A DNA stretch of 64,000 nt from Escherichia phage vB_EcoM_JQD51: the sequence record PV204681, one strand, 5' to 3'. Positions 36,410 through 64,000 of the stretch are shown piece after piece. The position numbers and the translations under genes were made by a program. The stretch's first letter is position 1. Each line of letters starts with the position of its first letter. Below the pieces are notes generated by a model. It was not told the DNA's origin and searched no databases. It saw nothing but the letters and a program-made list of their open reading frames with translations.

Positions 36410-37510
36410 TTACGCTGTGAAGATTTTATCCCACATCGCAACAACTGCATCTCGGTTATACTTCTTCCATACTGCTTCAGCACGTTTAACTCGAGCTTCG
36501 TATGTGTCAGTGAATTCTAATACAGCTTTTGTGTAAAGCGCAACTACTTCTTTCTTAGGAGTAGAGGAATCAATTTCTACACGCACAGTATCTGGGTCGT
36601 ATTCGAATGTCGCATGAGGATAATCCTTAAAAACTAACTGGATTACAGGGACACCTTTAGAGATGGCTTCAATAGAACTATTCTCTACAGTACCTGTGTC
36701 AGGACACGTATTAATAAGCGCTTTAGCTGTTTTAAGACGTTCCATGATTTCACTGTGTGGAGCATCAATAATAACAGGATATTTAGCTGGTGGTGCCCAT
36801 TTACTAGGACAGTATCCTACACCATTTTCGCCTAGTGCTTTAATCGCTTCAAGAGCAACATCAGTACGACGCATTTTAGTGTCATAACGTTGTGCACTAA
36901 TAATCAGATCAGTCGCCGGAAGAACTTCATGTTTCTCATTCAAACAAATAACCGGATAATCTTCGGCTTCAAACAACGGATTTGCTCGCCAATAATCATA
37001 ATCAATTTTGTCAGTCAGACCTGAAGTCATATAACAATATTTGCGTTCAAATTCACGGAAGGCTTTAGTAGGAGCATAACTCTTACCACCATTCTTATGA
37101 ATTTGAATAGTCTGGTCCCAAATTTGAACAATGCCACGAGATACTGGTTCAAATGGTGTTGCCATAAAATTCTTATGAACTTTAGAGAGACCTGCGTCTT
37201 TAATTGCCTGAACGGTTAGTTTAGTCGGTTCCATAGTAACAACAAAATCGTATTCATGGATGCCGGCTAGTTCAACAATCTTACGAGCCATAGTATAACT
37301 CATACCTAGACTGAATTTAGTCAGATGACCAACAGGATGATGATTAACTTTCCAATCACCAAATGTGTCATTATCAAAGCCGATATAATCAATATCAGCA
37401 CCGATGGACACAAGATATTTCAACACATTTAAATGTACTGCTTCAAGGCCACCTTGTACACGGTCAGGATTAAATGGGACTGCACGAGATGGGATAAACA
37501 TAACTTTCAT
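36410..37510 (-). CDS. GT-B fold glycosyltransferase (candidate DNA sugar transferase)
   Basis: 366 aa; N-terminal MKVMFIPSRAVPF...GGLEAVHLNVLKYL and C-terminal TGTVENSSIEAISKGVPVIQ resembling the GT4 E-x7-E donor-binding region; occupies the T4 gene 60/mobA slot. Confidence 0.6.
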   Translation of the reverse strand: MKVMFIPSRAVPFNPDRVQGGLEAVHLNVLKYLVSIGADIDYIGFDNDTFGDWKVNHHPVGHLTKFSLGMSYTMARKIVELAGIHEYDFVVTMEPTKLTVQAIKDAGLSKVHKNFMATPFEPVSRGIVQIWDQTIQIHKNGGKSYAPTKAFREFERKYCYMTSGLTDKIDYDYWRANPLFEAEDYPVICLNEKHEVLPATDLIISAQRYDTKMRRTDVALEAIKALGENGVGYCPSKWAPPAKYPVIIDAPHSEIMERLKTAKALINTCPDTGTVENSSIEAISKGVPVIQLVFKDYPHATFEYDPDTVRVEIDSSTPKKEVVALYTKAVLEFTDTYEARVKRAEAVWKKYNRDAVVAMWDKIFTA

Positions 37511-49139: not shown

Positions 49140-49661
49140 TCAGTAACCATTATCCTGGCGTTCAAAGTTGTGTTGGTTTTTCAAGTAGTAAAGTTTAAAG
49201 ATTTCTTCAGCAGAAAGACCCAGACCTTGGAACATGTTCAGAACGAAGTGCAGAATATCAATCATCTCAAATTTAATTTCAAGCTGGTCTTCAGGAGACA
49301 GTTCATCGATACGACGATTACGATATTCAGCATGTTGTGCTTTCCACGGCTTCCATACAGAGCTAGCTGCTTTTTCACCATTGCTCATACCACCAAGTGA
49401 AGTCAACAGTTCACGGAATTCATCGTCAATATAATCTTTCTGATTACGCAGCCAGTCAACAACATCGCCAGCAGTGGCTAATTCATCAGGATGTTTGTTA
49501 TGTTCAGGCTTGTCATTTGCCAGACGAACCTGTAAAGATTTCTGCATATCAAGCATTACCTGCAGAGGGTCTTTATCTTCGTGAATCAGGGCATTAAAAT
49601 AAGCTTCTTCTGCTTTATCAACACCAGAAATAAGTTGTGAACATTCGTTAAAGTGCGCCAT
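49140..49661 (-). CDS. 56: dCTPase/dUTPase gp56 (MazG-like)
   Basis: Track ORF (TTG start) trimmed to MAHFNECSQ with AAGGAA SD; 173 aa. Confidence 0.85.
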   Translation of the reverse strand: MAHFNECSQLISGVDKAEEAYFNALIHEDKDPLQVMLDMQKSLQVRLANDKPEHNKHPDELATAGDVVDWLRNQKDYIDDEFRELLTSLGGMSNGEKAASSVWKPWKAQHAEYRNRRIDELSPEDQLEIKFEMIDILHFVLNMFQGLGLSAEEIFKLYYLKNQHNFERQDNGY

Positions 49662-55701: not shown

Positions 55702-56043
55702 TTAAAAGAATTTAAATTTTTTCTTGGTCCGTTCATTAAAAGCTTGTTGTACTTGCATTGTAACACATTTTTCAACATGTGGTGCAAGTTCTGCTTTTCT
55801 GTCCTGGTCAAGAACTGCAAAGTCCATTACGATTTTACCATCAACCCAGTCTAGTTTTGTAATATAGACTATATGATGAGAACCATCTTCAAGCGTAATC
55901 AGAATCTCTTGAATGACATTTTCCATTGCTGAACGGATAATTTTAAGAGATTCATTAAACACTCGTTCTTTGCGAATGTCTTCCCCTTCCGAAGAAGGGG
56001 ATTCATCAACGATTTCTAGATTTAAATCATCGAGATTATTCAT
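55702..56043 (-). CDS. 40: gp40 head vertex assembly chaperone
   Basis: Track ORF trimmed to internal ATG (113 aa); position between uvsX and 41. Confidence 0.55.
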   Translation of the reverse strand: MNNLDDLNLEIVDESPSSEGEDIRKERVFNESLKIIRSAMENVIQEILITLEDGSHHIVYITKLDWVDGKIVMDFAVLDQDRKAELAPHVEKCVTMQVQQAFNERTKKKFKFF

Positions 56044-57208
56044 CGAAATCTTCCATTTCGTCAAGGTCGTTTTCTATATCTGCTGCAGACGGAGCATCAG
56101 AAGTTTTAACCGGAACTTTAGTTGTTGCTTTGCAATTAATAAGGTCGTTAACAGCGTCATCAACTTCTTTAATAGAAGAGATAGCACCTAGTTTATATTT
56201 AGTTTCAATTGCATCTCGGAAAGGTTTGTGTTTAAACAACGGCCCCCAGAATTCTACACAATCGGTAGCTTTAGCACGCCATGATTTCTCTTCACGAATC
56301 ATTTCGCCCGTTTCTTCGTCAAGGAATTCGCGAGCATACCACCCGGCTTTAGGCTTAACTACAAAACCAATTTCAGTTGCCATTTCTAACAAGCCACTGA
56401 ATGGGTCGATACCACCATCGAAATTAACCGTGATCGGGAAAGTAGATTTCTCTTTAACTGTACGAGATTTTTCTGCTTTCAACGTGAAGTCATAACCGGT
56501 CAATTCTGTGCCTTCTTTAACCTGACGTTTAGAGATAAAAAATACCGTGTTAGCAGAATAAAGAATACCTGTGCCACCGCCCATAATCTCTTTAGGATAC
56601 AATCCACCGATTTCCATTGCTGTATGGTTGATTGCAACACATGGAATATCTTTAATAGTCAGATAAGGAGTCACAATGCGGAACAGAGATTTAAGTGCCT
56701 TAGCACGAGACATATCACCTACGACTTTCTCGTTCAATGCATCTTCGGTTTCTTTCTTAGATGCAGTATTACCAATCGAGTCAATAAAGATAATAACTTT
56801 ATCACCGCGTTCAATCGCGTCAAGCTGATTAGTCATATCAACTTTAAGTTGTTCGACAGATTGAATCGGAGTATGAACTACACGGTCTAAATCAACACCC
56901 ATCGAACGAAAATAAGATTCTGAAGCACCAAATTCTGAATCATAGAACAAACAAATTGCATCTTTATATTTCTTCATATATGCTGCAACCATGGTCAGTC
57001 CAAACAACGTTTTAAAGTGTTTAGAAGGAGCAGCAAAAATAGTTAAGCCTGATTGCAACCCGGCATTCAGTGCACCACCTAATGCAATATTCAACATCGG
57101 AATACGAGTAGGGACTTCATCGCGATTATTAAACAACTTAGACTTAGTCAAGTCTGCAGTCATTTTAGAAGTAGAAGCTTTAATCAGACGAGATTTTAAA
57201 TCAGACAT
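56036..57208 (-). CDS. uvsX: UvsX recombinase (RecA-like)
   Basis: 390 aa; MSDLKSRLIKASTSKMTADLTKSKLFN...; RecA-fold ATPase. Confidence 0.95.
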   Translation of the reverse strand: MSDLKSRLIKASTSKMTADLTKSKLFNNRDEVPTRIPMLNIALGGALNAGLQSGLTIFAAPSKHFKTLFGLTMVAAYMKKYKDAICLFYDSEFGASESYFRSMGVDLDRVVHTPIQSVEQLKVDMTNQLDAIERGDKVIIFIDSIGNTASKKETEDALNEKVVGDMSRAKALKSLFRIVTPYLTIKDIPCVAINHTAMEIGGLYPKEIMGGGTGILYSANTVFFISKRQVKEGTELTGYDFTLKAEKSRTVKEKSTFPITVNFDGGIDPFSGLLEMATEIGFVVKPKAGWYAREFLDEETGEMIREEKSWRAKATDCVEFWGPLFKHKPFRDAIETKYKLGAISSIKEVDDAVNDLINCKATTKVPVKTSDAPSAADIENDLDEMEDFDE

Positions 57209-57307
57209 TGTATTTTTCCATAGGCATCATTATATTTTACTCATGTTTAAAAGATAAGACGATTATATACTAAGGGTTATACAGCATTTAAAACTTTAAA
57301 CAGGCTC

Positions 57308-57856
57308 TTAACGAGCCCATTTGATAATTTCTGTAATCAAATAATTACGTTCGCTTGCATTAAATCCTATAACTTTGTTAGCACCGTCATGATTAAGTAA
57401 TTGATACGTTTGGATTTTGTTATGAATTGCAAACTCTTCAAAATATGAAATGACTGTATTAAAACCGAATGAAGACAAAGTAATAAGATCGTCTTCAAAA
57501 CTTTCAGTCATTTCGTTACGTGTTAAAATAATTGTGAACACATCATGGTTTTGGCAAAGACGAACATAATCCTGTTCATAAACGTCAAGAACCGAGTCCG
57601 CATCTTGTCGAATACGTCCATAAACCCAGTTACTAATATATCCACGGTCTAACAGATAAATCTTAGTAGGGTCTAAATAATTCAACATCGTTTCGAAACA
57701 GCCAACTTCATTTCGAGACTTAACATCGAAACGTCCATCAACTGTTCGTTTAGGGAAATCAATCTTTACATATCTTTCACTAATTTCCATTATGTCATTA
57801 ATGAAAGTTGTTTTACCAGCATTATCCGGGCCATCTACTAAAATAATTTTAGCCAT
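57308..57856 (-). CDS. P-loop kinase, thymidylate-kinase-like
   Basis: 182 aa; Walker A GPDNAGKTT; DR(G/Y) motif LLDRGYISNWVYG as in TMPK/dNMP kinases; coupled to upstream gene; sits in the T4 beta-gt slot. Confidence 0.6.
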   Translation of the reverse strand: MAKIILVDGPDNAGKTTFINDIMEISERYVKIDFPKRTVDGRFDVKSRNEVGCFETMLNYLDPTKIYLLDRGYISNWVYGRIRQDADSVLDVYEQDYVRLCQNHDVFTIILTRNEMTESFEDDLITLSSFGFNTVISYFEEFAIHNKIQTYQLLNHDGANKVIGFNASERNYLITEIIKWAR

Positions 57857-57857
57857 T

Positions 57858-58757
57858 TTATTCCTCGATTACGACATCTTCATATTTAGGTATATTATAC
57901 GGCGAAGAAATTAAAGCATTAAAGTAGATGAACTCACCAAGACCTGGATGGAATACTTCTTCAGGATTTTCGAAATATTGAATCTTCGGACGTCCTTTAA
58001 GAATTTGATAGTACTCAGTTTTAGTTGGTTTAAAAATTCGAATCAGCGCTTCTTCAGGATACTTATTTCTGTCGAAGCTATTATTTGGATCGGTTATATA
58101 AAGCGGTTGGCCTAATTGAATTGCACATTCAACCACTTGTTCAAAACGATAGCACGGGTCACTAATTCGAAATGGATGAAAAATACCATCTAGATGAATA
58201 GGAGCCAAATCACCTACAAGACGCTGCATGATGGAAGGACGTATAACTTTCTGGGTTACGATAATCTTATTACCATCGGCACCAGCGTTAACCAGCACTT
58301 CCTTTTGACGTTTATTCAACACAGTAGTTTGAAGTGAACGATTAACCGACAACATATCGGTTTTTAAGAATTCGTCAATATAAAAACGTGGTTTATTAGG
58401 GTCTGCAGTGATATTGAAATTGAATTCCACATCAAAAGCGCCGTCATATCCAGTGATATCTGTGATTAGAAAATCACAATCATAATAATCAATTAATGAA
58501 TCAACCACAAATTCATTTTCAGACCAGAAATATTTACGAGTGTTATATGCGTTATCTTTATACCATAATGGAACAAACTTAAATTCTGGGAAAAGACGTT
58601 CACATTCTTTAATATCAGATGCATTACGTGGATATGTAATCACATCACCCGGATTAGCACGGTGCAAATGAAGTTGGAAGTTGCCATCCTTAAGGATAGC
58701 ATACTGTCCAGTTTCATAAGACCGCATACTCAAGATAGGTACGCGGAAAATAGCCAT
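57858..58757 (-). CDS. hypothetical protein (299 aa), candidate DNA-modification enzyme
   Basis: ORF track; TAATG coupling with gene 42; contains a DCD (DxD-like) motif; family not recognised. Confidence 0.5.
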   Translation of the reverse strand: MAIFRVPILSMRSYETGQYAILKDGNFQLHLHRANPGDVITYPRNASDIKECERLFPEFKFVPLWYKDNAYNTRKYFWSENEFVVDSLIDYYDCDFLITDITGYDGAFDVEFNFNITADPNKPRFYIDEFLKTDMLSVNRSLQTTVLNKRQKEVLVNAGADGNKIIVTQKVIRPSIMQRLVGDLAPIHLDGIFHPFRISDPCYRFEQVVECAIQLGQPLYITDPNNSFDRNKYPEEALIRIFKPTKTEYYQILKGRPKIQYFENPEEVFHPGLGEFIYFNALISSPYNIPKYEDVVIEE

Positions 58758-59473
58758 TAGTCAAGGAATCCTTTAACATAATCAAAATCACGTTCAAACA
58801 CATGGGCACTTACCATGGTATGAGTATAATCACCAACTTCTACACCACATTCGTTAGCGATATAATGAAGTAATTTTCCTTGGAGATAAAAATCCAACTG
58901 CATAACAACAGCACAGTTCTGAGAACGCATATGACAGTGGGTATAAAGCTTACCATCACGAATATAATAAGTCACTGAGTCAGTACATGGATATTCAAGC
59001 GTTTCGTCTGAATCAAGCAAAGCCTGATCAGAACTTTCTAGAATTTGGAACACAACTCTTCGAGAGTTAGGCTTCTCTTTAAGTTCTTTTAGAAGAGCTG
59101 GTAATTGGGCCACAATGCGAGGACCATAGAAAGTGTTGAAGTTCGCCGGCAAAACATCTGATTTTGGTTTAGAAATAAATTTAGCGACATTAGGATATGC
59201 CTTAAACGCTTCTTCTGCGTTGGTACCACCAGAAATCATAAACTTCCAGAAGTCTTCGGCATATTCATAAGAGATGCGGTTAATACGTGGGTCAGTCATT
59301 TTGAATGATGACGGAGTGTCAACAACTACTGTCATAGACCCAATTTCATTACAACGTCCAATACGAGAATCAGTTACGAATTCCGGGTTTTCTAAAATTT
59401 CACGATTGACTGCTTTAAATGCGGTTTGAAAATCTGCGGCTTTGATATATTTCATTGTGTTATGTTTTCCCAT
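58757..59473 (-). CDS. 42: dCMP hydroxymethylase (thymidylate synthase family)
   Basis: 238 aa; catalytic-Cys motif YPCTDSVTYYIRD aligns with T4 gp42 FMCTNTVQYLIRD; Asp in the specificity position (QLD, cf. T4 RND) implies cytosine substrate; GAGGT SD. Confidence 0.8.
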   Translation of the reverse strand: MGKHNTMKYIKAADFQTAFKAVNREILENPEFVTDSRIGRCNEIGSMTVVVDTPSSFKMTDPRINRISYEYAEDFWKFMISGGTNAEEAFKAYPNVAKFISKPKSDVLPANFNTFYGPRIVAQLPALLKELKEKPNSRRVVFQILESSDQALLDSDETLEYPCTDSVTYYIRDGKLYTHCHMRSQNCAVVMQLDFYLQGKLLHYIANECGVEVGDYTHTMVSAHVFERDFDYVKGFLD

Positions 59474-59654
59474 GTTTACCTCAATACAATTTATTATATA
59501 CTCAATTCGTAAAGCTTATTTGAATTTCTTGACAATGTTGATATAACGTAAAGCTTCAGCATCGATACTTCCAAGAACACTATGAAGAAATGCATCAGCG
59601 TAGTATTCCAATTAAACAGGTTCTTTAATCACTTTAGCCGCTTTAGTTTCAAAC

Positions 59655-59675
59655 AGGCCCATCAGGGCCTTTTTA
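59655..59675 (+). other. hairpin plus T-run on plus strand between gene 42 and the U32 gene
   Basis: aggccc-atca-gggcct then tttt. Confidence 0.3.
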
Positions 59676-59751
59676 AGAATTTGTTCGATGCTGTTAATTT
59701 TCATAGTCAAAATCTCTTCGTTAAGTTGGTGGTTAAAAGTTTTTCTAGAAA

Positions 59752-60912
59752 TCATTCTGGGTACCTCAAAGCGTCGTCAGAGTTAGTTATATCAATAATA
59801 GATATAGAATTTTCTGATAACCCATTTTTAGATAACTGACGTTTATAATATCTTTCACAATATGTACACGTCGTCCCGCAGATTTCATTAGCACAATCGA
59901 AATCTGGATGTTTGAACCACCTTTTTTCTAAAAAGCCATCTAACAAAGAGGTTTCAATATTTACCGTATGTGAAAACTCGGTCTCATTTTCAAGAGTGAA
60001 AATGGTCTCTAAAGGCTTCCACAATTCCAACAAATTACCTTCAAACTTTTCAGAAGCATAAGCTTCAAGAACTTTCAAAATGTAGTCTGTGCTACCTGTA
60101 CGTCCTGAAACTTTGAATTGAGTGATACCAATATCATTATAAAGTTTCAAATCTTGAGGACGAACAAAACGAGTTCTCAACCAGTTAAATGGGTCTGTAT
60201 CACGAGCTTTAATACAGTGCTGCATTGGATACCCATTTAAGGATTTGGCATCATCTACTGTAACATCGGTGCTATGGAAAATATAGCAAGAGTCACGATA
60301 ACTACAATGTGTTGTATACCCTTTACCAGCATTAGAACAGAACTCATTTACAAGAACTTCAAATATTATATTGTTCTTATTACAAAACTCTGCTGCACGC
60401 TTCAGGAAAGAAACTGAACGGTTCTTATGAATTCCGCAGCAGACCTTTTTGATATTATATTGGTCATGCAAGTATTTGATTTGAGTTACAGCATCGACAT
60501 GTAGAATTGTTGAAACTTCAATCTCAATGTCTTTATTGACTTCACGAACAATTTCCATAACAACAGGGTTAGCGATAGTAATACGCCATACGCCTATTGA
60601 CCAAAGATACTGAACATAATCCTGAATAGCTTTCTTCTTCCACTCAACTAGTTCTCTTTTTGAACCAGGATTTATCGTGTTGAGTGTATAGTTAAAGCAA
60701 ATACCTAATTCGTTACAACGTTTAACGTAATCTTCTAACATCTTTTTGTCAACGTCAGGAAGCCTAAAATCAGGTCTGGCTGCTACAAAAGCCATTTCTC
60801 TGGTAGAGCCGTATACTTCGTTTATCAAGCTATTAGGATAAGTTTTATTGAGCTCTACGATTTTATCAAGAAGAGCTAAATCAAAATTCGTTCCGATTTT
60901 AAAGGTATTCAT
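59752..60912 (-). CDS. peptidase U32 family protein (prephenate-dependent hydroxylase family)
   Basis: 386 aa; blocks ANPVVMEIVRE, EIEVSTILHV, Cys-rich EVLVNEFCSNAGKGYTTHCSYRDSC and FKVSGRTGS align with remembered U32 proteins (YegQ/RlhA: DPGLIMLVRE, EIFVHGALCMAYSGRC, LKIEGRTKS). Confidence 0.6.
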   Translation of the reverse strand: MNTFKIGTNFDLALLDKIVELNKTYPNSLINEVYGSTREMAFVAARPDFRLPDVDKKMLEDYVKRCNELGICFNYTLNTINPGSKRELVEWKKKAIQDYVQYLWSIGVWRITIANPVVMEIVREVNKDIEIEVSTILHVDAVTQIKYLHDQYNIKKVCCGIHKNRSVSFLKRAAEFCNKNNIIFEVLVNEFCSNAGKGYTTHCSYRDSCYIFHSTDVTVDDAKSLNGYPMQHCIKARDTDPFNWLRTRFVRPQDLKLYNDIGITQFKVSGRTGSTDYILKVLEAYASEKFEGNLLELWKPLETIFTLENETEFSHTVNIETSLLDGFLEKRWFKHPDFDCANEICGTTCTYCERYYKRQLSKNGLSENSISIIDITNSDDALRYPE

Positions 60913-60966
60913 TTTTGCATCTCGCGTTAATTGTTGCGATGGTTTTTGCAGGTCTTACTTAAATTA

Positions 60967-61368
60967 TTATAGATTCGGTTTATATGATTTAAATGTTTCG
61001 AATTCGCCTTTATTCATAAGAGCTTTGAATTCGTCAGGACGCATAGCTTTGTCGTCGATAATCCAATCATATACTGGTTTATGTGTTAGCAAATTATGGT
61101 ACTTCAATCCAATGTTTGCCAAGTTCTGAATCAGACTTGGGAGAATGTCAATTGCTATACGACCAGGACCGACTGACTTCATACCGCGAGCAGTGTAAAG
61201 CGTTATTGTATGCCCTGCATCATATAGGGCATTAATGGCAGACACCATTTCGACGTCTGGTTTGAAGTTCACGTAATCACGATTGTTATTCCATTCCGTG
61301 ATGCAATCATCGACATCAAAACAAAGATTAAGCATGTTTTTTACACGGTGCATTAGATTCGTTCCCAT
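60967..61368 (-). CDS. HAD-superfamily phosphatase (small)
   Basis: 133 aa; motif I FDVDDCIT (DxDx[T/V]), motif II LYTARG, motif III/IV K...IIDDKA; start may be the ATG at 61353 (TAATG overlap). Confidence 0.6.
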   Translation of the reverse strand: MGTNLMHRVKNMLNLCFDVDDCITEWNNNRDYVNFKPDVEMVSAINALYDAGHTITLYTARGMKSVGPGRIAIDILPSLIQNLANIGLKYHNLLTHKPVYDWIIDDKAMRPDEFKALMNKGEFETFKSYKPNL

Positions 61369-63038
61369 TGATGAGTGATATCGCCACCGATTGGACGATA
61401 AGAAACACCAGTTTCTTTATCAGTTAGTACCCATTTACCAGGATTTTTTGTAATCAGAGTAGCCGTTACAGGTTCTGCTACATCATAACTAATAGAGCCG
61501 TCTTGAAGTACACGGCCCATATTACGTAATTGCTTAGTCAGAAGTTCCATACCTTTATAATATGCGGCTACCGCTTTAAGTGGATTATTCTTGAAATAAC
61601 CACCTAATGCAATCCAGATAATTGCTACAGCCAAATGATGATACTCATTAAACGAACTCATCTTTCCATATTTGTAAACTAATGGATTGATGTTAATAGT
61701 CACATTACAAGTTGTTTCATCAATAGTAAACTGTCCCCAGGTCGGATTAGCATTGAATTCATCATAACCTGAAACAGCATAAAGCACTTTAGCTTCATCA
61801 TACAATTTTGGCCCGTAAATCTTGGTTTCACCAAAATATCCACGAGGGTCGATAAACTTGACTTCACCATTATCAGTAATCATAGTATTACTGAAGTTTG
61901 GGTCACCATGAATAACAGAGTACTGTCCCTGAGAACGGTTATGATAACGAATAAGGTGTTCTAAAGCTTGTTTCAGCATTGGCTTCAGACGCCCAATCTT
62001 AGTGTAGTTCACATGTGTGATTTTACCAAATGAATCAATCAATGGTTGAATACTTTCACAACGATCAATAACTTTAGTATAGAATTCTTTAGTGAAATCA
62101 CGACGAACAGTTTCAGGACTTACAAAATAAGTGTCTGTGCTGAATTTCAGTGCATCTAAAATTGCATCAACAATTTGTGGACGAGCAAGACTTGATTTGG
62201 ATTTAATATATTCAAATGCCGGCTTACCTTTAATGCGTTCCATTTCAAAGTTATTTTCATTAACAGAAACTAGCTGAGGAACTGAATCTGATTTCACTTT
62301 AAGATACCATGAAATCTCATCTTTCTGAAGAGCTCGGCCCTGTTCGGTTAATGCGAATTTAGTTACAGTTTCTTCACCAATTTCAACTGCATTAAAACTA
62401 CGATTAAGTTCACGAACTTCATGAGCTTTTTCAAGTTTAGGCATATCACCTAAATCAATTAGATTCATAAGCTCTGATTTATTGAATGCGCTGCCGTAAA
62501 GGAATTCTACGAAATCACGTCCTTTGCAGTATTCATGAATTTCCTCATCAGTAGAACCCATATAGAATTCCCAGTCTTTGAACTGATAAATTCCTACAAC
62601 ATTACCACCTGTTGAACCTACGTTAGTGATATTTTCACCGTCGAAATTATATCGACATTCGTCGCCCTTAACATAGATTGCGTTAACATTCCAAGACCAT
62701 GAACCAAAATCAGGAATAATATCACACCAGTTAACAATTACATTATGGCCGTCTAAATCTTTGTGCAATTTAGCAAGAGCATAAGCAGAACCATATGCTT
62801 CATCAACTGTACGAATAGTCACATTGAACCCTTCTTGCTCACAATAAGCTCGAACGGTTTCAGCAAATTTTGAATGAACTACTACAATAATTTCATCTGC
62901 GCCAAGGTCAGAATAAATTGTATACAAATTGCTCAGAATAGTGTCTTGTTTATAGTTAACAAGCACCTTAGGAATATGATGTGTTATTGGATACAAACGA
63001 GTTGCCAGTCCAGCACCGAGAATAACAGCTTTTTTCAT
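61353..63038 (-). CDS. bifunctional sugar-1-phosphate nucleotidyltransferase / APH-like anomeric sugar kinase
   Basis: 561 aa; N-terminal KKAVILGAGLATRLYPITHHIPKVLV (RmlA/GalU-type G-x-G-T-R-L-x-P-x-T); C-terminal HGDPNFSN...KFIDPRGYFG (HxDxxxxN catalytic loop and D of Mg site as in ChoK/APH/AmgK); GAGGACC SD. Confidence 0.8.
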   Translation of the reverse strand: MKKAVILGAGLATRLYPITHHIPKVLVNYKQDTILSNLYTIYSDLGADEIIVVVHSKFAETVRAYCEQEGFNVTIRTVDEAYGSAYALAKLHKDLDGHNVIVNWCDIIPDFGSWSWNVNAIYVKGDECRYNFDGENITNVGSTGGNVVGIYQFKDWEFYMGSTDEEIHEYCKGRDFVEFLYGSAFNKSELMNLIDLGDMPKLEKAHEVRELNRSFNAVEIGEETVTKFALTEQGRALQKDEISWYLKVKSDSVPQLVSVNENNFEMERIKGKPAFEYIKSKSSLARPQIVDAILDALKFSTDTYFVSPETVRRDFTKEFYTKVIDRCESIQPLIDSFGKITHVNYTKIGRLKPMLKQALEHLIRYHNRSQGQYSVIHGDPNFSNTMITDNGEVKFIDPRGYFGETKIYGPKLYDEAKVLYAVSGYDEFNANPTWGQFTIDETTCNVTININPLVYKYGKMSSFNEYHHLAVAIIWIALGGYFKNNPLKAVAAYYKGMELLTKQLRNMGRVLQDGSISYDVAEPVTATLITKNPGKWVLTDKETGVSYRPIGGDITHQWERI

Positions 63039-63079
63039 GTTGTGGTCCTCATTGGTAAGTAGGAGTATTGTACACTATT

Positions 63080-63223
63080 CTAGTTAAAGCATTCATACTT
63101 TGCTTGTAGTCCAATCATAATCCATCCAATTACAAGTGTTGGAATCATTACTGGAGCCGTTAAGCTCCAGTAGATAGTCATGACAAGCATCAATAGTAAA
63201 AGTCCTATTGTTATTGCTTTCAT
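63080..63223 (-). CDS. small hydrophobic peptide (47 aa)
   Basis: Hand-read: MKAITIGLLLLMLVMTIYWSLTAPVMIPTLVIGWIMIGLQAKYECFN; ATGA overlap with the isomerase stop. Confidence 0.3.
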   Translation of the reverse strand: MKAITIGLLLLMLVMTIYWSLTAPVMIPTLVIGWIMIGLQAKYECFN

Positions 63224-63855
63224 TGTTCGCCTCGTAACATGGCACCTAGTGCGCCGCCAGGGTGGAACTTAAGGAAGTCATTAGAGGTAAATCCACGCTC
63301 AGACGAAAGGTTGATAGCAAACGTATCGATAAGCGCTAACAACAATGTAGTGGACATAGTCGGAGCCAGAGAATTCTCATCAACCTCTACTGCGATGCCT
63401 GTACAGAAAGAGTAATCAAAAAGGGCTTCATTTTCTTGTGGAATGTCTGGGTTACAATGCAACAGAATCTGTTTGACGTTCGGACGAATCATTTTAAGAT
63501 GCTTAGCCACGCCTATCATTTCTTCAGTTTTACCAGAACGACTAATATGAATCAACACATCATTAGGCGCAATGAATCCTGCATCACCGTGAGAATAATG
63601 CCCAGTGTTCAAGTACATACTCGGGATACCGAGTGAAGCAAATGTCTCAGAAGCTTTAGTTGCAATATTAGCATTCTTACCAACACCTGTAATAATTACT
63701 CGGCTTTCATAATTACTAAGTCCCGGACGTCGAAGAGTTTCTAGAATAGCATTATAACGAGCAGGGTTTTGACTAATTACTTTGGCCATATCGGCCAAAG
63801 AAGAAGATTGTTTTATGATTGCGTTAATAGCGATAGTAATAGGAGTAGTTTTCAT
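63220..63855 (-). CDS. SIS-domain sugar-phosphate isomerase, KdsD/KpsF-type arabinose-5-phosphate isomerase (no CBS domains)
   Basis: 211 aa; TGVGKNANIATKASETFASLGIPSMYLNTGHYSHGDAGFIAPNDVLIHISRSGKTEE aligns with the KdsD SIS core (GxGKSGxIGxKxAATFASTG...HGDLG...SxSGE). Confidence 0.8.
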   Translation of the reverse strand: MKTTPITIAINAIIKQSSSLADMAKVISQNPARYNAILETLRRPGLSNYESRVIITGVGKNANIATKASETFASLGIPSMYLNTGHYSHGDAGFIAPNDVLIHISRSGKTEEMIGVAKHLKMIRPNVKQILLHCNPDIPQENEALFDYSFCTGIAVEVDENSLAPTMSTTLLLALIDTFAINLSSERGFTSNDFLKFHPGGALGAMLRGEQ

Positions 63856-63895
63856 ATTTCTCTCATTTAATTAGTTTACCGTCCATGACATTATA

Positions 63896-64000
63896 TCAAA
63901 AATCGAACATATCGAAAAGAGATGCTTTCTTCTCGTAATCGAGTTTCGCTGCTGATGTGAATCCTTCAAGTGGTTTAATAAATGTCTTCTCAAGGAGAAC
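63896..64000 (-). CDS. 43: DNA polymerase gp43, C-terminal 34 codons (gene continues beyond window end)
   Basis: Hand translation ...VLLEKTFIKPLEGFTSAAKLDYEKKASLFDMFDF*; the terminal KKASLFDMFDF matches the RB69 pol clamp-binding peptide as I remember it. Confidence 0.6.
   Translation of the reverse strand, partial: VLLEKTFIKPLEGFTSAAKLDYEKKASLFDMFDF

What the first reader, a model, noticed from the sequence alone, without database searches (positions are those of the whole stretch)
61353..63038. Fused sugar-1-phosphate nucleotidyltransferase and APH/ChoK-like kinase
A single 561-aa ORF carries an RmlA/GalU-type nucleotidyltransferase N-terminus (GAGLATRLYPIT...K) and a C-terminal kinase with the HxDxxxxN catalytic loop and downstream FIDPRG. 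This is the architecture of anomeric kinase/pyrophosphorylase salvage pairs, here fused and phage-encoded. It would let the phage make an activated sugar donor independently of host nucleotide-sugar pools.
Basis: partly seen in the sequence, partly recalled or inferred. Interest (0 to 1): 0.7.

Follow-up and report, generated by a model that had tools for sequence, protein, structure and literature searches.

The report
Known phage UDP-arabinose-making fusion enzyme
This gene is a near-identical copy of an already described enzyme of RB69-like phages, a sugar kinase fused to a nucleotide-sugar synthase, which makes the activated arabinose these phages attach to the cytosines of their DNA to escape bacterial nucleases.

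Summary
Window 61353-63038 (-) is one 561-aa ORF with an N-terminal RmlA/GalU/LicC-type nucleotidyltransferase and a C-terminal APH/choline-kinase-like kinase, and all catalytic residues are present and invariant across the family. It is not new. The window is a Mosigvirus (about 98% nucleotide identity to RB69), and the protein is 99.6% identical to RB69 gp52:53. Thomas et al. 2018 showed that this is a single 561-residue protein; the split in GenBank is a one-base sequencing error. Lee et al. (NAR 2026) equate it with AfhE of phage HY126, reported as a bifunctional D-arabinose-5-phosphate kinase / UDP-D-arabinose pyrophosphorylase. It works with the neighbouring SIS arabinose-5-P isomerase and HAD phosphatase. 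The product feeds glycosyltransferases that make 5-arabinosyl-hydroxycytosine DNA. The reported route is de novo from ribulose-5-P, through a 1,5-bisphosphate and a phosphatase step, and its purpose is DNA hypermodification. My additions are Rosetta-stone proteins (HAD-SIS-nucleotidyltransferase-kinase in one chain) on giant-virus-like contigs and, as a side lead, a U32 Fe-S protein paired with chorismate mutase in the cluster, which suggests an oxygen-independent cytosine hydroxylase.

The parts
61353..63038 (-). Gene for the 561-aa bifunctional nucleotidyltransferase/kinase (orthologue of RB69 gp52:53, equated with HY126 AfhE)
   Evidence: ORF. 99.6% amino-acid identity to RB69 and 100% to several Mosigvirus records. 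PHROG 4098 matched full length at E 3.7e-295. AlphaFold2 pLDDT 94.
62409..63038 (-). N-terminal sugar-1-phosphate nucleotidyltransferase domain (about residues 1-210). Signature G8..R14..K24 lies at 62967-63017, D106 at 62721-62723, D195/D198 at 62445-62456.
61509..62408 (-). APH/choline-kinase-like (eukaryotic-like kinase fold) domain, about residues 211-510. K227 lies at 62358-62360, E241 at 62316-62318, the HGDPNFSN catalytic loop at 61887-61910 and FIDPRG at 61839-61856.
61356..61508 (-). C-terminal extension of about 50 residues (511-561) beyond the kinase fold, mostly short beta strands. Role unknown.
   Evidence: Secondary structure and pLDDT of 83-90. It is absent from the roughly 89%-coverage distant homologues.
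63220..63855 (-). SIS-domain arabinose-5-phosphate isomerase (RB69 gp55 orthologue). It supplies D-arabinose-5-P from ribulose-5-P.
   Evidence: Pfam SIS E 9.8e-11. NCBIfam KpsF/GutQ 2e-32 and KdsD 5.9e-31. 98.6% identical to RB69p055. Role as given in PMC13326640.
60967..61353 (-). HAD-type phosphatase (RB69 gp51 orthologue, AfhF-like). Its start ATG overlaps the TAA stop of the nucleotidyltransferase-kinase gene (TAATG).
   Evidence: NCBIfam TIGR01689 capsule-biosynthesis phosphatase 4.2e-13. Identical at 127 of 128 residues to solved structure 9iqw. Junction sequence. Role as given in PMC13326640.
58757..59473 (-). Thymidylate-synthase homologue (RB69 gp48 orthologue), the 5-hydroxy-dCMP synthase that creates the acceptor hydroxyl
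   Evidence: Pfam Thymidylat_synt 1.2e-15. 98.7% identical to RB69p048. Near-identical to PDB 9iqc/9ir2/9iqu. Activity shown for RB69 gp48 in PMC13326640.
57858..58757 (-). 299-aa predicted DNA arabinosyltransferase 1 (RB69 gp46:47 orthologue), a consumer of the NDP-arabinose
   Evidence: tblastn to RB69p046 and p047, which are contiguous here. PHROG 3891. Assignment from PMC13326640 Table 1.
36410..37510 (-). 366-aa predicted DNA arabinosyltransferase 2 (RB69 ORF003c/gp3 orthologue), lying between rIIA and topoisomerase gene 39
   Evidence: 99.2% identical to RB69p003. Assignment from PMC6024577 and PMC13326640.
57308..57856 (-). Thymidylate-kinase-like nucleotide kinase (RB69 gp45 orthologue) in the same cluster
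   Evidence: PHROG 761 at 5.8e-45. 98.4% identical to RB69p045.
59752..60912 (-). U32-family protein (RB69 gp50 orthologue) inside the cluster. Its role in the pathway is unresolved.
   Evidence: Pfam Peptidase_U32 6.3e-11. Ten invariant cysteines. See the items noticed in passing.
49143..49661 (-). dCTPase gp56 orthologue (RB69p028), which removes canonical dCTP so that modified C replaces C
   Evidence: 97.1% identical to RB69p028. Role as listed in PMC13326640 Table 1.

Best explanation
The ORF encodes the Mosigvirus orthologue of RB69 gp52:53, the protein that PMC13326640 equates with HY126 AfhE. It is one polypeptide with two active sites and makes UDP-D-arabinofuranose for the phage. The proposed sequence of steps is as follows. 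(1) The neighbouring SIS isomerase converts host ribulose-5-phosphate to D-arabinose-5-phosphate. (2) The C-terminal APH/choline-kinase-like domain uses ATP to phosphorylate C1, giving arabinose-1,5-bisphosphate; the residues involved are K227 and E241 for ATP, D379 as catalytic base, and N384 and D397 for Mg2+. (3) The HAD phosphatase encoded immediately downstream, and probably translationally coupled, removes the 5-phosphate to give arabinose-1-phosphate. (4) The N-terminal RmlA-type nucleotidyltransferase domain (G8xGxxxR14, K24, D106, D195/D198) condenses it with UTP to form UDP-arabinose. (5) Two GT-B glycosyltransferases transfer arabinose onto 5-hydroxycytosine in replicated phage DNA; that base is made as 5-hydroxy-dCMP by the thymidylate-synthase homologue. 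The result is mono- and di-arabinosylated cytosines that block restriction enzymes and CRISPR nucleases. Shown here: the architecture, fold, catalytic residues, orthology and gene context. Taken from the literature: sugar identity, UDP as carrier and the order of steps. Inferred: that this particular phage behaves like RB69 and HY126.
For: The ORF and motifs are confirmed. The N-domain passes the Pfam cut-off, and both folds are recovered at high confidence. The catalytic residues of both domains are invariant over 54 homologues down to 29% identity. The protein is 99.6% identical to RB69 ORF053c+052c, and the only frame difference is a single extra C in the RB69 record at window position 62385. 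That matches the sequencing error reported at C-29116 together with expression of a single 561-residue protein (PMC6024577). [quoted passage not shown] The flanking proteins are near-identical to solved structures 9iqw (HAD) and 9iqc/9ir2/9iqu (ThyA homologue). The whole RB69 cluster is present in the window at 94.9-100% identity. Independent support comes from distant homologues that fuse HAD + SIS + nucleotidyltransferase + kinase in one 890-955-aa chain with all catalytic residues kept. The nucleotidyltransferase-kinase also sits beside a phosphatase and a ThyA homologue in unrelated phages of Enterococcus and Tenacibaculum. One Mosigvirus GenBank record already labels the gene 'putative enzyme involved in UDP-arabinose biosynthesis'.
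Against: No biochemistry was done on this protein or seen first-hand. The primary paper on AfhE (He et al., Nat Chem Biol 2026) and Mahler et al. 2025 are not in the held library, so the order of steps and the UDP carrier rest on a secondary summary. Table 1 of that same summary paper still lists the other order, phosphatase first and then a kinase acting on free arabinose. The HY126 AfhE sequence itself could not be compared. The closest structural relatives of the kinase domain act on unphosphorylated substrates. Nucleotide specificity cannot be read from the sequence: the position of the uracil-binding Gln of RmlA/GlmU is not occupied by Gln here (my own reading of the alignment).
Confidence: 0.85

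Rival explanations
1. Same enzyme and same end product, but with the steps in the order the first reader implied. The HAD phosphatase first strips arabinose-5-P to free D-arabinose. The kinase domain then acts as a true anomeric kinase on the free sugar, and the nucleotidyltransferase activates arabinose-1-P. This would be a salvage-type pair fed by a de novo source.
For: Table 1 of PMC13326640 annotates gp51 as 'dephosphorylates Araf5p to Ara' and the C-terminal domain as 'phosphorylates Ara to Araf1p'. The structural neighbours of the kinase domain (choline kinase, APH, glucosamine kinase, maltokinase, fructosamine kinase) all act on unphosphorylated substrates.
Against: The text of the same paper, citing the HY126 biochemistry, states that AfhE phosphorylates Araf5P to Araf1,5P and that AfhF then removes a phosphate. 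A DLP3 gp81 structural hit is to the heptose-1,7-bisphosphate 7-phosphatase GmhB. The kinase domain has several invariant basic residues beyond the ATP lysine (R326, R399, K417, K488) that could hold a phosphate; this last point is inference only.
Confidence: 0.1
2. The protein is what some database records call it, namely GlmU, a mannose-1-phosphate guanylyltransferase, or a LicA/LicC-like choline kinase plus phosphocholine cytidylyltransferase. In that case it would serve cell-envelope or capsule-type metabolism rather than DNA modification.
Against: NCBIfam scores are far below every equivalog cut-off: GlmU 22 bits against 367-505, MurU 24.8 against 250, HddC 22 against 300. The C-terminal half is a kinase fold, not the left-handed beta-helix acetyltransferase of GlmU. 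The gene sits between an arabinose-5-P isomerase and a sugar-phosphate phosphatase, next to the 5-hydroxy-dCMP synthase and a DNA glycosyltransferase. RB69 DNA contains arabinose on cytosine (PMC6024577, PMC13326640).
Confidence: 0.02
3. The pathway is the same but the nucleotide carrier differs (CDP-, GDP- or dTDP-arabinose rather than UDP-arabinose).
For: The top sequence and structure hits include CTP- and GTP-using enzymes (LicC, HddC, GMPPB). The canonical uracil-binding Gln is not evident (reading). PMC13326640 itself writes 'NDP-arabinose ... potentially UDP-arabinose' for RB69.
Against: The HY126 work is cited as demonstrating UDP-D-arabinose pyrophosphorylase activity. The structural relatives of the phage glycosyltransferases mostly use UDP-sugars.
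Confidence: 0.05

Closest known systems
RB69 ORF53_52c (gp52:53), HY126 AfhE and Acinetobacter phage DLP3 gp82: bifunctional D-arabinose-5-P kinase / UDP-D-arabinose pyrophosphorylase of arabinosyl-5-hydroxycytosine phages
   Same: The length is the same (561 aa) and identity to RB69 is 99.6%. The domain order, catalytic residues and gene neighbourhood are also the same. This is the same protein family and, in practice, the same protein.
   Different: Nothing of substance differs. There are 39 nucleotide substitutions relative to RB69, almost all synonymous, and the spurious extra C of the RB69 record is absent.
HldE + GmhA + GmhB (ADP-L-glycero-D-manno-heptose pathway of Gram-negative bacteria; from general knowledge)
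   Same: The chemical logic is identical. A SIS isomerase makes a sugar phosphate, a kinase adds the anomeric phosphate to give a bisphosphate, a HAD phosphatase removes the distal phosphate, and a nucleotidyltransferase activates the sugar. Kinase and nucleotidyltransferase are fused in one protein.
   Different: The two catalytic domains are not homologous to those of HldE. HldE has a PfkB/ribokinase-type kinase and a cytidylyltransferase-type adenylyltransferase, with the kinase N-terminal. Here the kinase is APH/ChoK-like, the nucleotidyltransferase is RmlA-like, and the nucleotidyltransferase is N-terminal. The sugar is a pentose, the carrier is UDP, and the acceptor is DNA.
AmgK + MurU (MurNAc/GlcNAc anomeric kinase and MurNAc-1-P uridylyltransferase, cell-wall recycling in Pseudomonas)
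   Different: AmgK and MurU are separate proteins that act on a free sugar, with no isomerase or phosphatase. The MurU equivalog models score 19.9-24.8 bits against cut-offs of 250-370.
LicA + LicC (choline kinase and CTP:phosphocholine cytidylyltransferase of Streptococcus pneumoniae)
   Different: The substrate is choline rather than a sugar phosphate, the carrier is CDP, and the proteins are separate.
FKP (Bacteroides L-fucokinase/GDP-fucose pyrophosphorylase) and Leishmania AFKP80 (D-arabinose/L-fucose kinase-pyrophosphorylase); from general knowledge
   Same: These are also fusions with an N-terminal pyrophosphorylase and a C-terminal sugar-1-kinase that make an NDP-sugar in one protein. 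AFKP80 makes an activated D-arabinose.
   Different: Their kinase is of the GHMP type, they perform true salvage of free sugar, the carrier is GDP, and the sugar is in the pyranose form.

Membership tests
RB69 gp52:53 / AfhE family (phage bifunctional arabinose-5-P kinase / UDP-arabinose pyrophosphorylase) | Orthology to RB69 ORF53_52c over the full length | tested here: met
   tblastn gives 99.6% identity over residues 1-561. The nucleotide alignment shows 39 substitutions plus the one-base indel of the RB69 record. PHROG 4098 is matched full length at E 3.7e-295.
RB69 gp52:53 / AfhE family (phage bifunctional arabinose-5-P kinase / UDP-arabinose pyrophosphorylase) | N-terminal nucleotidyltransferase plus C-terminal kinase in one chain, with intact active sites | tested here: met
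RB69 gp52:53 / AfhE family (phage bifunctional arabinose-5-P kinase / UDP-arabinose pyrophosphorylase) | Clustered with an arabinose-5-P isomerase, a HAD phosphatase (AfhF-like), the 5-hydroxy-dCMP synthase and DNA glycosyltransferases | tested here: met
RB69 gp52:53 / AfhE family (phage bifunctional arabinose-5-P kinase / UDP-arabinose pyrophosphorylase) | Direct sequence identity to HY126 AfhE | not testable with these tools
   Neither the HY126 sequence nor He et al. 2026 is held. Indirect evidence comes from the neighbouring proteins: the HAD phosphatase is 127/128 identical to PDB 9iqw, and the ThyA homologue matches 9iqc at E 2.9e-160 over its full length. These appear to be structures from that study (the attribution is my inference).
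RB69 gp52:53 / AfhE family (phage bifunctional arabinose-5-P kinase / UDP-arabinose pyrophosphorylase) | Arabinose-5-P 1-kinase and UDP-arabinose pyrophosphorylase activities | not testable with these tools
   These are enzyme assays. They are reported for HY126 AfhE according to PMC13326640.
Sugar-1-phosphate nucleotidyltransferases (Pfam PF00483 NTP_transferase, RmlA/GalU fold) | Pfam model above the gathering score | tested here: met
   39.1 bits against a 21.2-bit cut-off, residues 3-99.
Sugar-1-phosphate nucleotidyltransferases (Pfam PF00483 NTP_transferase, RmlA/GalU fold) | G-x-G-x(2)-R ... K signature and a Rossmann-like fold | tested here: met
APH / choline-kinase (eukaryotic-like kinase) superfamily (Pfam PF01636 and relatives) | Pfam model above the gathering score | tested here: not met
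   Only sub-threshold hits are found: Fructosamin_kin 17.1 against 22.4, EcKL 16.2 against 22, RIO1 16.1 against 22. Some homologues carry precomputed PF01636 hits.
APH / choline-kinase (eukaryotic-like kinase) superfamily (Pfam PF01636 and relatives) | Brenner motif HxDxxxxN, a downstream Mg-binding Asp, the N-lobe Lys/Glu pair and a bilobal kinase fold | tested here: met
GlmU (as some GenBank records name it) | C-terminal left-handed beta-helix acetyltransferase and a score above the equivalog cut-off | tested here: not met
   TIGR01173 scores 22.1 bits against 366.85, on the N-terminal 100 residues only. The C-terminal half has a kinase fold.
   NF045761 scores 24.8 bits against 250, and NF045697 scores 19.9 against 370.
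   This needs an assay. The literature summary says the substrate is arabinose-5-P, although Table 1 of the same paper lists free arabinose.
HldE (heptose kinase/adenylyltransferase) | PfkB-type kinase and cytidylyltransferase-type nucleotidyltransferase domains | tested here: not met
   No PfkB or CTP_transf_like hit appears in Pfam or NCBIfam. The folds are different. HldE is an analogue in logic only.

The most novel reading that the evidence does not exclude
The nucleotidyltransferase-kinase module may not be confined to phage DNA modification. It could be the core of a general de novo route (ketose-phosphate isomerase, then 1-kinase, then phosphatase, then nucleotidyltransferase) to NDP-pentofuranoses that also operates in viruses of eukaryotes, and perhaps in eukaryotes themselves. 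Proteins of 890-955 aa that fuse HAD phosphatase, SIS isomerase, this nucleotidyltransferase and this kinase, with every catalytic residue kept, lie on contigs with giant-virus hallmarks (MutS with HNH, RNA polymerase subunits) and occur in a Ceratiomyxa transcriptome. A second group fuses the module to a cupin-type isomerase-like domain. If these proteins make an NDP-D-arabinose-like donor, giant viruses would have an unrecognised nucleotide-sugar pathway, for virion glycans or for DNA.
Probability: 0.35. Interest if true: 0.55.

Novelty: already known. Interest (0 to 1): 0.15.

Why it matters
For this ORF itself little is at stake, because the gene, its single-ORF nature, its two domains and its role in UDP-arabinose supply for arabinosyl-5-hydroxycytosine DNA are already published (2018 to 2026). 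The practical value is in annotation. Most of the 373 phage records that carry it still call it 'hypothetical protein', 'GlmU' or 'mannose-1-phosphate guanyltransferase', and they call its partner phosphatase 'phosphoheptose isomerase'. The pathway matters because it is a virus-encoded route to a nucleotide sugar not known in enterobacteria, and because it determines sensitivity to restriction, CRISPR and type IV systems, which bears on phage therapy. Two side observations may hold the remaining novelty: the four-domain fusions in giant-virus-like contigs, and the U32/chorismate-mutase pair that hints at oxygen-independent cytosine hydroxylation.

Tried and rejected
1. I tried to read the primary biochemical papers (He et al. 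Nat Chem Biol 2026; Mahler et al. Cell Host Microbe 2025). Neither is held, and searches for AfhE and HY126 found only the NAR 2026 paper.

2. Sequence-only searches of the PDB find the nucleotidyltransferase half. For the kinase half they give only RIO2 at E 0.06, so the kinase assignment needed the structure model.

3. The promoter/terminator scan of 56000-64000 gave fewer sites than shuffled sequence and says nothing about operon structure.

4. I tried to read the nucleotide specificity from the base-binding motif. It is not decidable, because no Gln sits at the RmlA/GlmU position.

5. I rejected the GlmU, ManC and LicA/LicC labels on score cut-offs, fold and context.

6. I considered whether the 'fusion' could be an assembly artefact of this window. 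I rejected this because the same uninterrupted ORF is present in more than 360 independent phage records, and the RB69 split was shown experimentally to be an error.

7. I checked whether RB69 gp49 is a divergent chorismate mutase. It has no Pfam hit at E up to 10, so this is left open.

8. I searched for a solved structure of the U32 protein and found none.
Full report
**Observation.** The ORF is exactly as described. It spans window 61353..63038 on the minus strand, has an ATG start and encodes 561 aa. A GAGGA ribosome-binding site lies 8 nt upstream. The quoted motifs are present: G8-A-G-L-A-T-R14...K24, H377-G-D-P-N-F-S-N384 and F395-I-D-P-R-G400.

Pfam places an NTP_transferase domain at residues 3-99 (39.1 bits; cut-off 21.2). 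For the C-terminal half it gives only sub-threshold kinase-family hits (Fructosamin_kin, EcKL, RIO1). Sequence searches of the PDB likewise see only the nucleotidyltransferase half, with LicC, HddC, GMPPB, RmlA and GalU as hits.

Across homologues down to 29% identity, the catalytic residues of both domains are invariant: G10, R14, K24, D106, D195 and D198 in the first, and K227, E241, D379, N384 and D397 in the second.

**What the window is.** The region 57000-64000 is 97.8-98.8% identical at the nucleotide level to RB69 and about 150 other Mosigvirus genomes. Every gene of the RB69 gp45-gp55 cluster is present at 94.9-100% protein identity, all on the minus strand between uvsX and DNA polymerase gene 43. 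The two distal components are also present: the second glycosyltransferase at 36410-37510 and the dCTPase at 49143-49661.

**The gene is already described.** In the RB69 reference record the gene appears as two overlapping ORFs, ORF053c and ORF052c. Thomas et al. 2018 re-sequenced the region and found that C-29116 of the GenBank entry does not exist. They expressed a single protein of the size expected for 561 residues and proposed a role in UDP-arabinose formation (PMC6024577).

My alignment reproduces this. The only length difference between the window and RB69 is one extra C in RB69, at the position of window 62385 (codon 218). The window protein is 99.6% identical to the RB69 product and 100% identical to the products of several published phages. 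One BASEL-collection record already annotates it as 'putative enzyme involved in UDP-arabinose biosynthesis'.

Lee et al. (NAR 2026, PMC13326640) report the following:
- RB69 DNA carries mono- and di-arabinosylated 5-hydroxycytosine, not hydroxymethylcytosine.
- gp48 is a flavin-dependent 5-hydroxy-dCMP synthase.
- gp51 is the counterpart of the Mg2+-dependent phosphatase AfhF, and gp55 is the arabinose-5-P isomerase.

I could not read the primary AfhE paper. However, the two neighbours of the ORF are essentially identical to solved structures in one deposition series. The HAD phosphatase matches 9iqw at 127 of 128 residues, and the ThyA homologue matches 9iqc/9ir2/9iqu. I infer that the characterised phage is a close relative of this one. 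No structure of the nucleotidyltransferase-kinase itself is in the PDB copy.

**Mechanism.** The best-supported route has five steps:
1. Ribulose-5-P is converted to D-arabinose-5-P by the SIS isomerase (63220-63855).
2. The kinase domain of this ORF adds the anomeric phosphate, giving arabinose-1,5-bisphosphate.
3. The HAD phosphatase (60967-61353) removes the 5-phosphate, giving arabinose-1-P.
4. The nucleotidyltransferase domain of this ORF produces UDP-arabinofuranose.
5. Glycosyltransferases transfer the arabinose to 5-hydroxycytosine in DNA.

The stop codon of the ORF overlaps the start of the phosphatase gene (TAATG), which is consistent with coupled expression. The logic is that of the ADP-heptose pathway (GmhA, HldE, GmhB), but it is built from non-homologous kinase and nucleotidyltransferase folds.

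Two lines of evidence that I did not find in the papers I could read support the functional coupling:
- Distant homologues (29-36% identity) of 890-955 aa carry HAD, SIS, nucleotidyltransferase and kinase in one chain and keep every catalytic residue.
- In unrelated phages the module again lies beside a phosphatase and a thymidylate-synthase homologue. Enterococcus phage 9183 has Tmk-ThyA-dUTPase-HAD-nucleotidyltransferase/kinase. Tenacibaculum phage PTm5 has nucleotidyltransferase/kinase, a histidine phosphatase and ThyA.

It is partly supported. The domains and the idea of an autonomous sugar-donor supply are right. The 'salvage pair' reading, with a free sugar as substrate, is not what is reported. 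The fusion is the rule rather than a peculiarity, since 363 of 373 records have it as one stretch. The sugar and the DNA-modification purpose were missed.

The alternative order, with the phosphatase first and then an anomeric kinase on free arabinose, survives as a minor rival. Table 1 of PMC13326640 still lists it, and the structural relatives of the kinase act on unphosphorylated substrates.

Database labels such as GlmU or mannose-1-P guanylyltransferase are rejected. The equivalog scores are roughly ten to twenty times below the cut-offs, and the C-terminal half is a kinase rather than an acetyltransferase.

**Side observations.**
- *Origin of the four-domain fusions.* One of them (P0084) lies among a MutS with an HNH domain, RNA polymerase subunits and other giant-virus-type genes. 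Another comes from a Ceratiomyxa transcriptome. A limited literature search found no description of these fusions.
- *The U32 protein (59752-60912).* The literature I could read leaves this cluster member essentially unassigned ('sugar or heterocycle reductase'). It belongs to the family of the prephenate-dependent, O2-independent hydroxylases RlhA (5-hydroxycytidine in 23S rRNA), TrhP and UbiU/V (papers listed).
  - It has ten invariant cysteines, including C192/C203/C209/C233 and a CX4CX3CX2C motif.
  - It is at least 80% identical in all 221 phage records that carry it, far more conserved than the nucleotidyltransferase-kinase in the same phages.
  - No Acinetobacter phage appears among the hit organisms tabulated or listed for the U32 protein, although 57 Acinetobacter phage records carry the nucleotidyltransferase-kinase.
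  - In 48 phage records a type II chorismate mutase, the enzyme that makes prephenate, is encoded immediately next to it, between the U32 gene and the ThyA homologue.
  - A 55%-identical homologue sits next to a dCMP deaminase on a 466-kb phage-like contig.
  - This suggests an oxygen-independent route to 5-hydroxycytosine alongside the O2/flavin-dependent gp48. I could not check whether the unavailable papers already say so.
- *The gp49 slot.* In this window the small gene between the U32 gene and the ThyA homologue carries a nonsense codon (CAA to TAA at 59612-59614). The closest published relative, S143_2, is annotated with the same 47-aa product.

**Verdict.** The feature is real and correctly observed, and it is already known. 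Interest is low for the finding as given.

Noticed in passing
window 59752-60912 (-); L008 5983-7394; L012 5447-7086: The U32-family gene inside the arabinosylation cluster (RB69 gp50) may be an O2-independent, prephenate-dependent cytosine C5 hydroxylase. It belongs to the same Pfam family as RlhA, TrhP and UbiU/V and has ten invariant cysteines. It is at least 80% identical in all 221 phage records that carry it, and no Acinetobacter phage appears among the hits tabulated or listed. A CM_2 chorismate mutase is encoded directly beside it in 48 phage records. A 55%-identical homologue abuts a dCMP deaminase on a 466-kb phage-like contig. The readable literature calls it only a 'sugar or heterocycle reductase'.
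   Followed up: partly
window 59516-59755 (-), stop codon at 59612-59614: The orthologue of RB69 gp49 (79 aa, unknown function) occupies the slot that holds chorismate mutase in other genera. Here it carries a nonsense mutation, CAA to TAA (Q48*). The closest relative, S143_2, is annotated with the same 47-aa product, so this is a circulating allele rather than a read error. RB69 gp49 has no Pfam hit and no similarity to the chorismate mutase.
   Followed up: partly
P0084, P0088, P0089, P0091, P0092, P0095, P0109 (proteins); L002 8001-10781: Single proteins of 890-955 aa fuse HAD phosphatase, SIS isomerase, this nucleotidyltransferase and this kinase, with all catalytic residues kept. One lies among MutS-HNH, RNA polymerase Rpb2 and RNA_pol_N genes (giant-virus-like). 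One comes from a Ceratiomyxa fruticulosa transcriptome. P0118 has a nucleoside 2-deoxyribosyltransferase-like stretch in place of SIS.
   Followed up: partly
P0106, P0108, P0111, P0112, P0116 (proteins): A second group of homologues of about 780-790 aa appends a C-terminal region to the nucleotidyltransferase-kinase. The source names it a cupin-type mannose-6-phosphate-isomerase-like protein, with a weak Pfam MannoseP_isomer hit. This could mean a different isomerase, and hence a different sugar, feeding the same module.
   Followed up: no
window 63080-63223 (-): A 47-aa strongly hydrophobic mini-ORF (MKAITIGLLLLMLVMTIYWSLTAPVMIPTLVIGWIMIGLQAKYECFN) lies between the SIS isomerase and the nucleotidyltransferase-kinase. 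Its ATG overlaps the isomerase stop codon (ATGA). RB69 annotates a shorter 36-aa version. Klebsiella phage KLB31 has a 47-aa transmembrane protein in the same slot. Its function is unknown.
   Followed up: no
window 61351-61368 (-): The mechanical ORF list starts the HAD phosphatase at 61368 (133 aa), inside the upstream gene. The start used in RB69 and matching PDB 9iqw is the ATG at 61353, which overlaps the TAA stop of the nucleotidyltransferase-kinase gene (TAATG). This suggests translational coupling.
   Followed up: yes
window 57858-58757 (-): The 299-aa glycosyltransferase is one intact ORF here, whereas the RB69 reference splits it into ORF046c and ORF047c. This agrees with the published statement that the RB69 split is a sequencing error.
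   Followed up: yes
L011 3866-8818 (Enterococcus phage 9183); L007 7001-9939 (Tenacibaculum phage PTm5): Distant phages keep the nucleotidyltransferase-kinase next to a phosphatase and a thymidylate-synthase homologue, but no SIS isomerase is annotated nearby. In PTm5 the phosphatase is of the histidine-phosphatase type instead of HAD. These phages may activate a different sugar phosphate and may carry uncharacterised glycosylated pyrimidines.
   Followed up: no
public annotations of the orthologues: Mis-annotation is widespread. The nucleotidyltransferase-kinase is labelled 'GlmU', 'mannose-1-phosphate guanyltransferase' or 'hypothetical protein'. The HAD phosphatase is labelled 'phosphoheptose isomerase' (PHROG 1238, RefSeq RB69p051) or 'polynucleotide kinase'. 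The U32 protein is labelled 'peptidase/collagenase'.
   Followed up: yes
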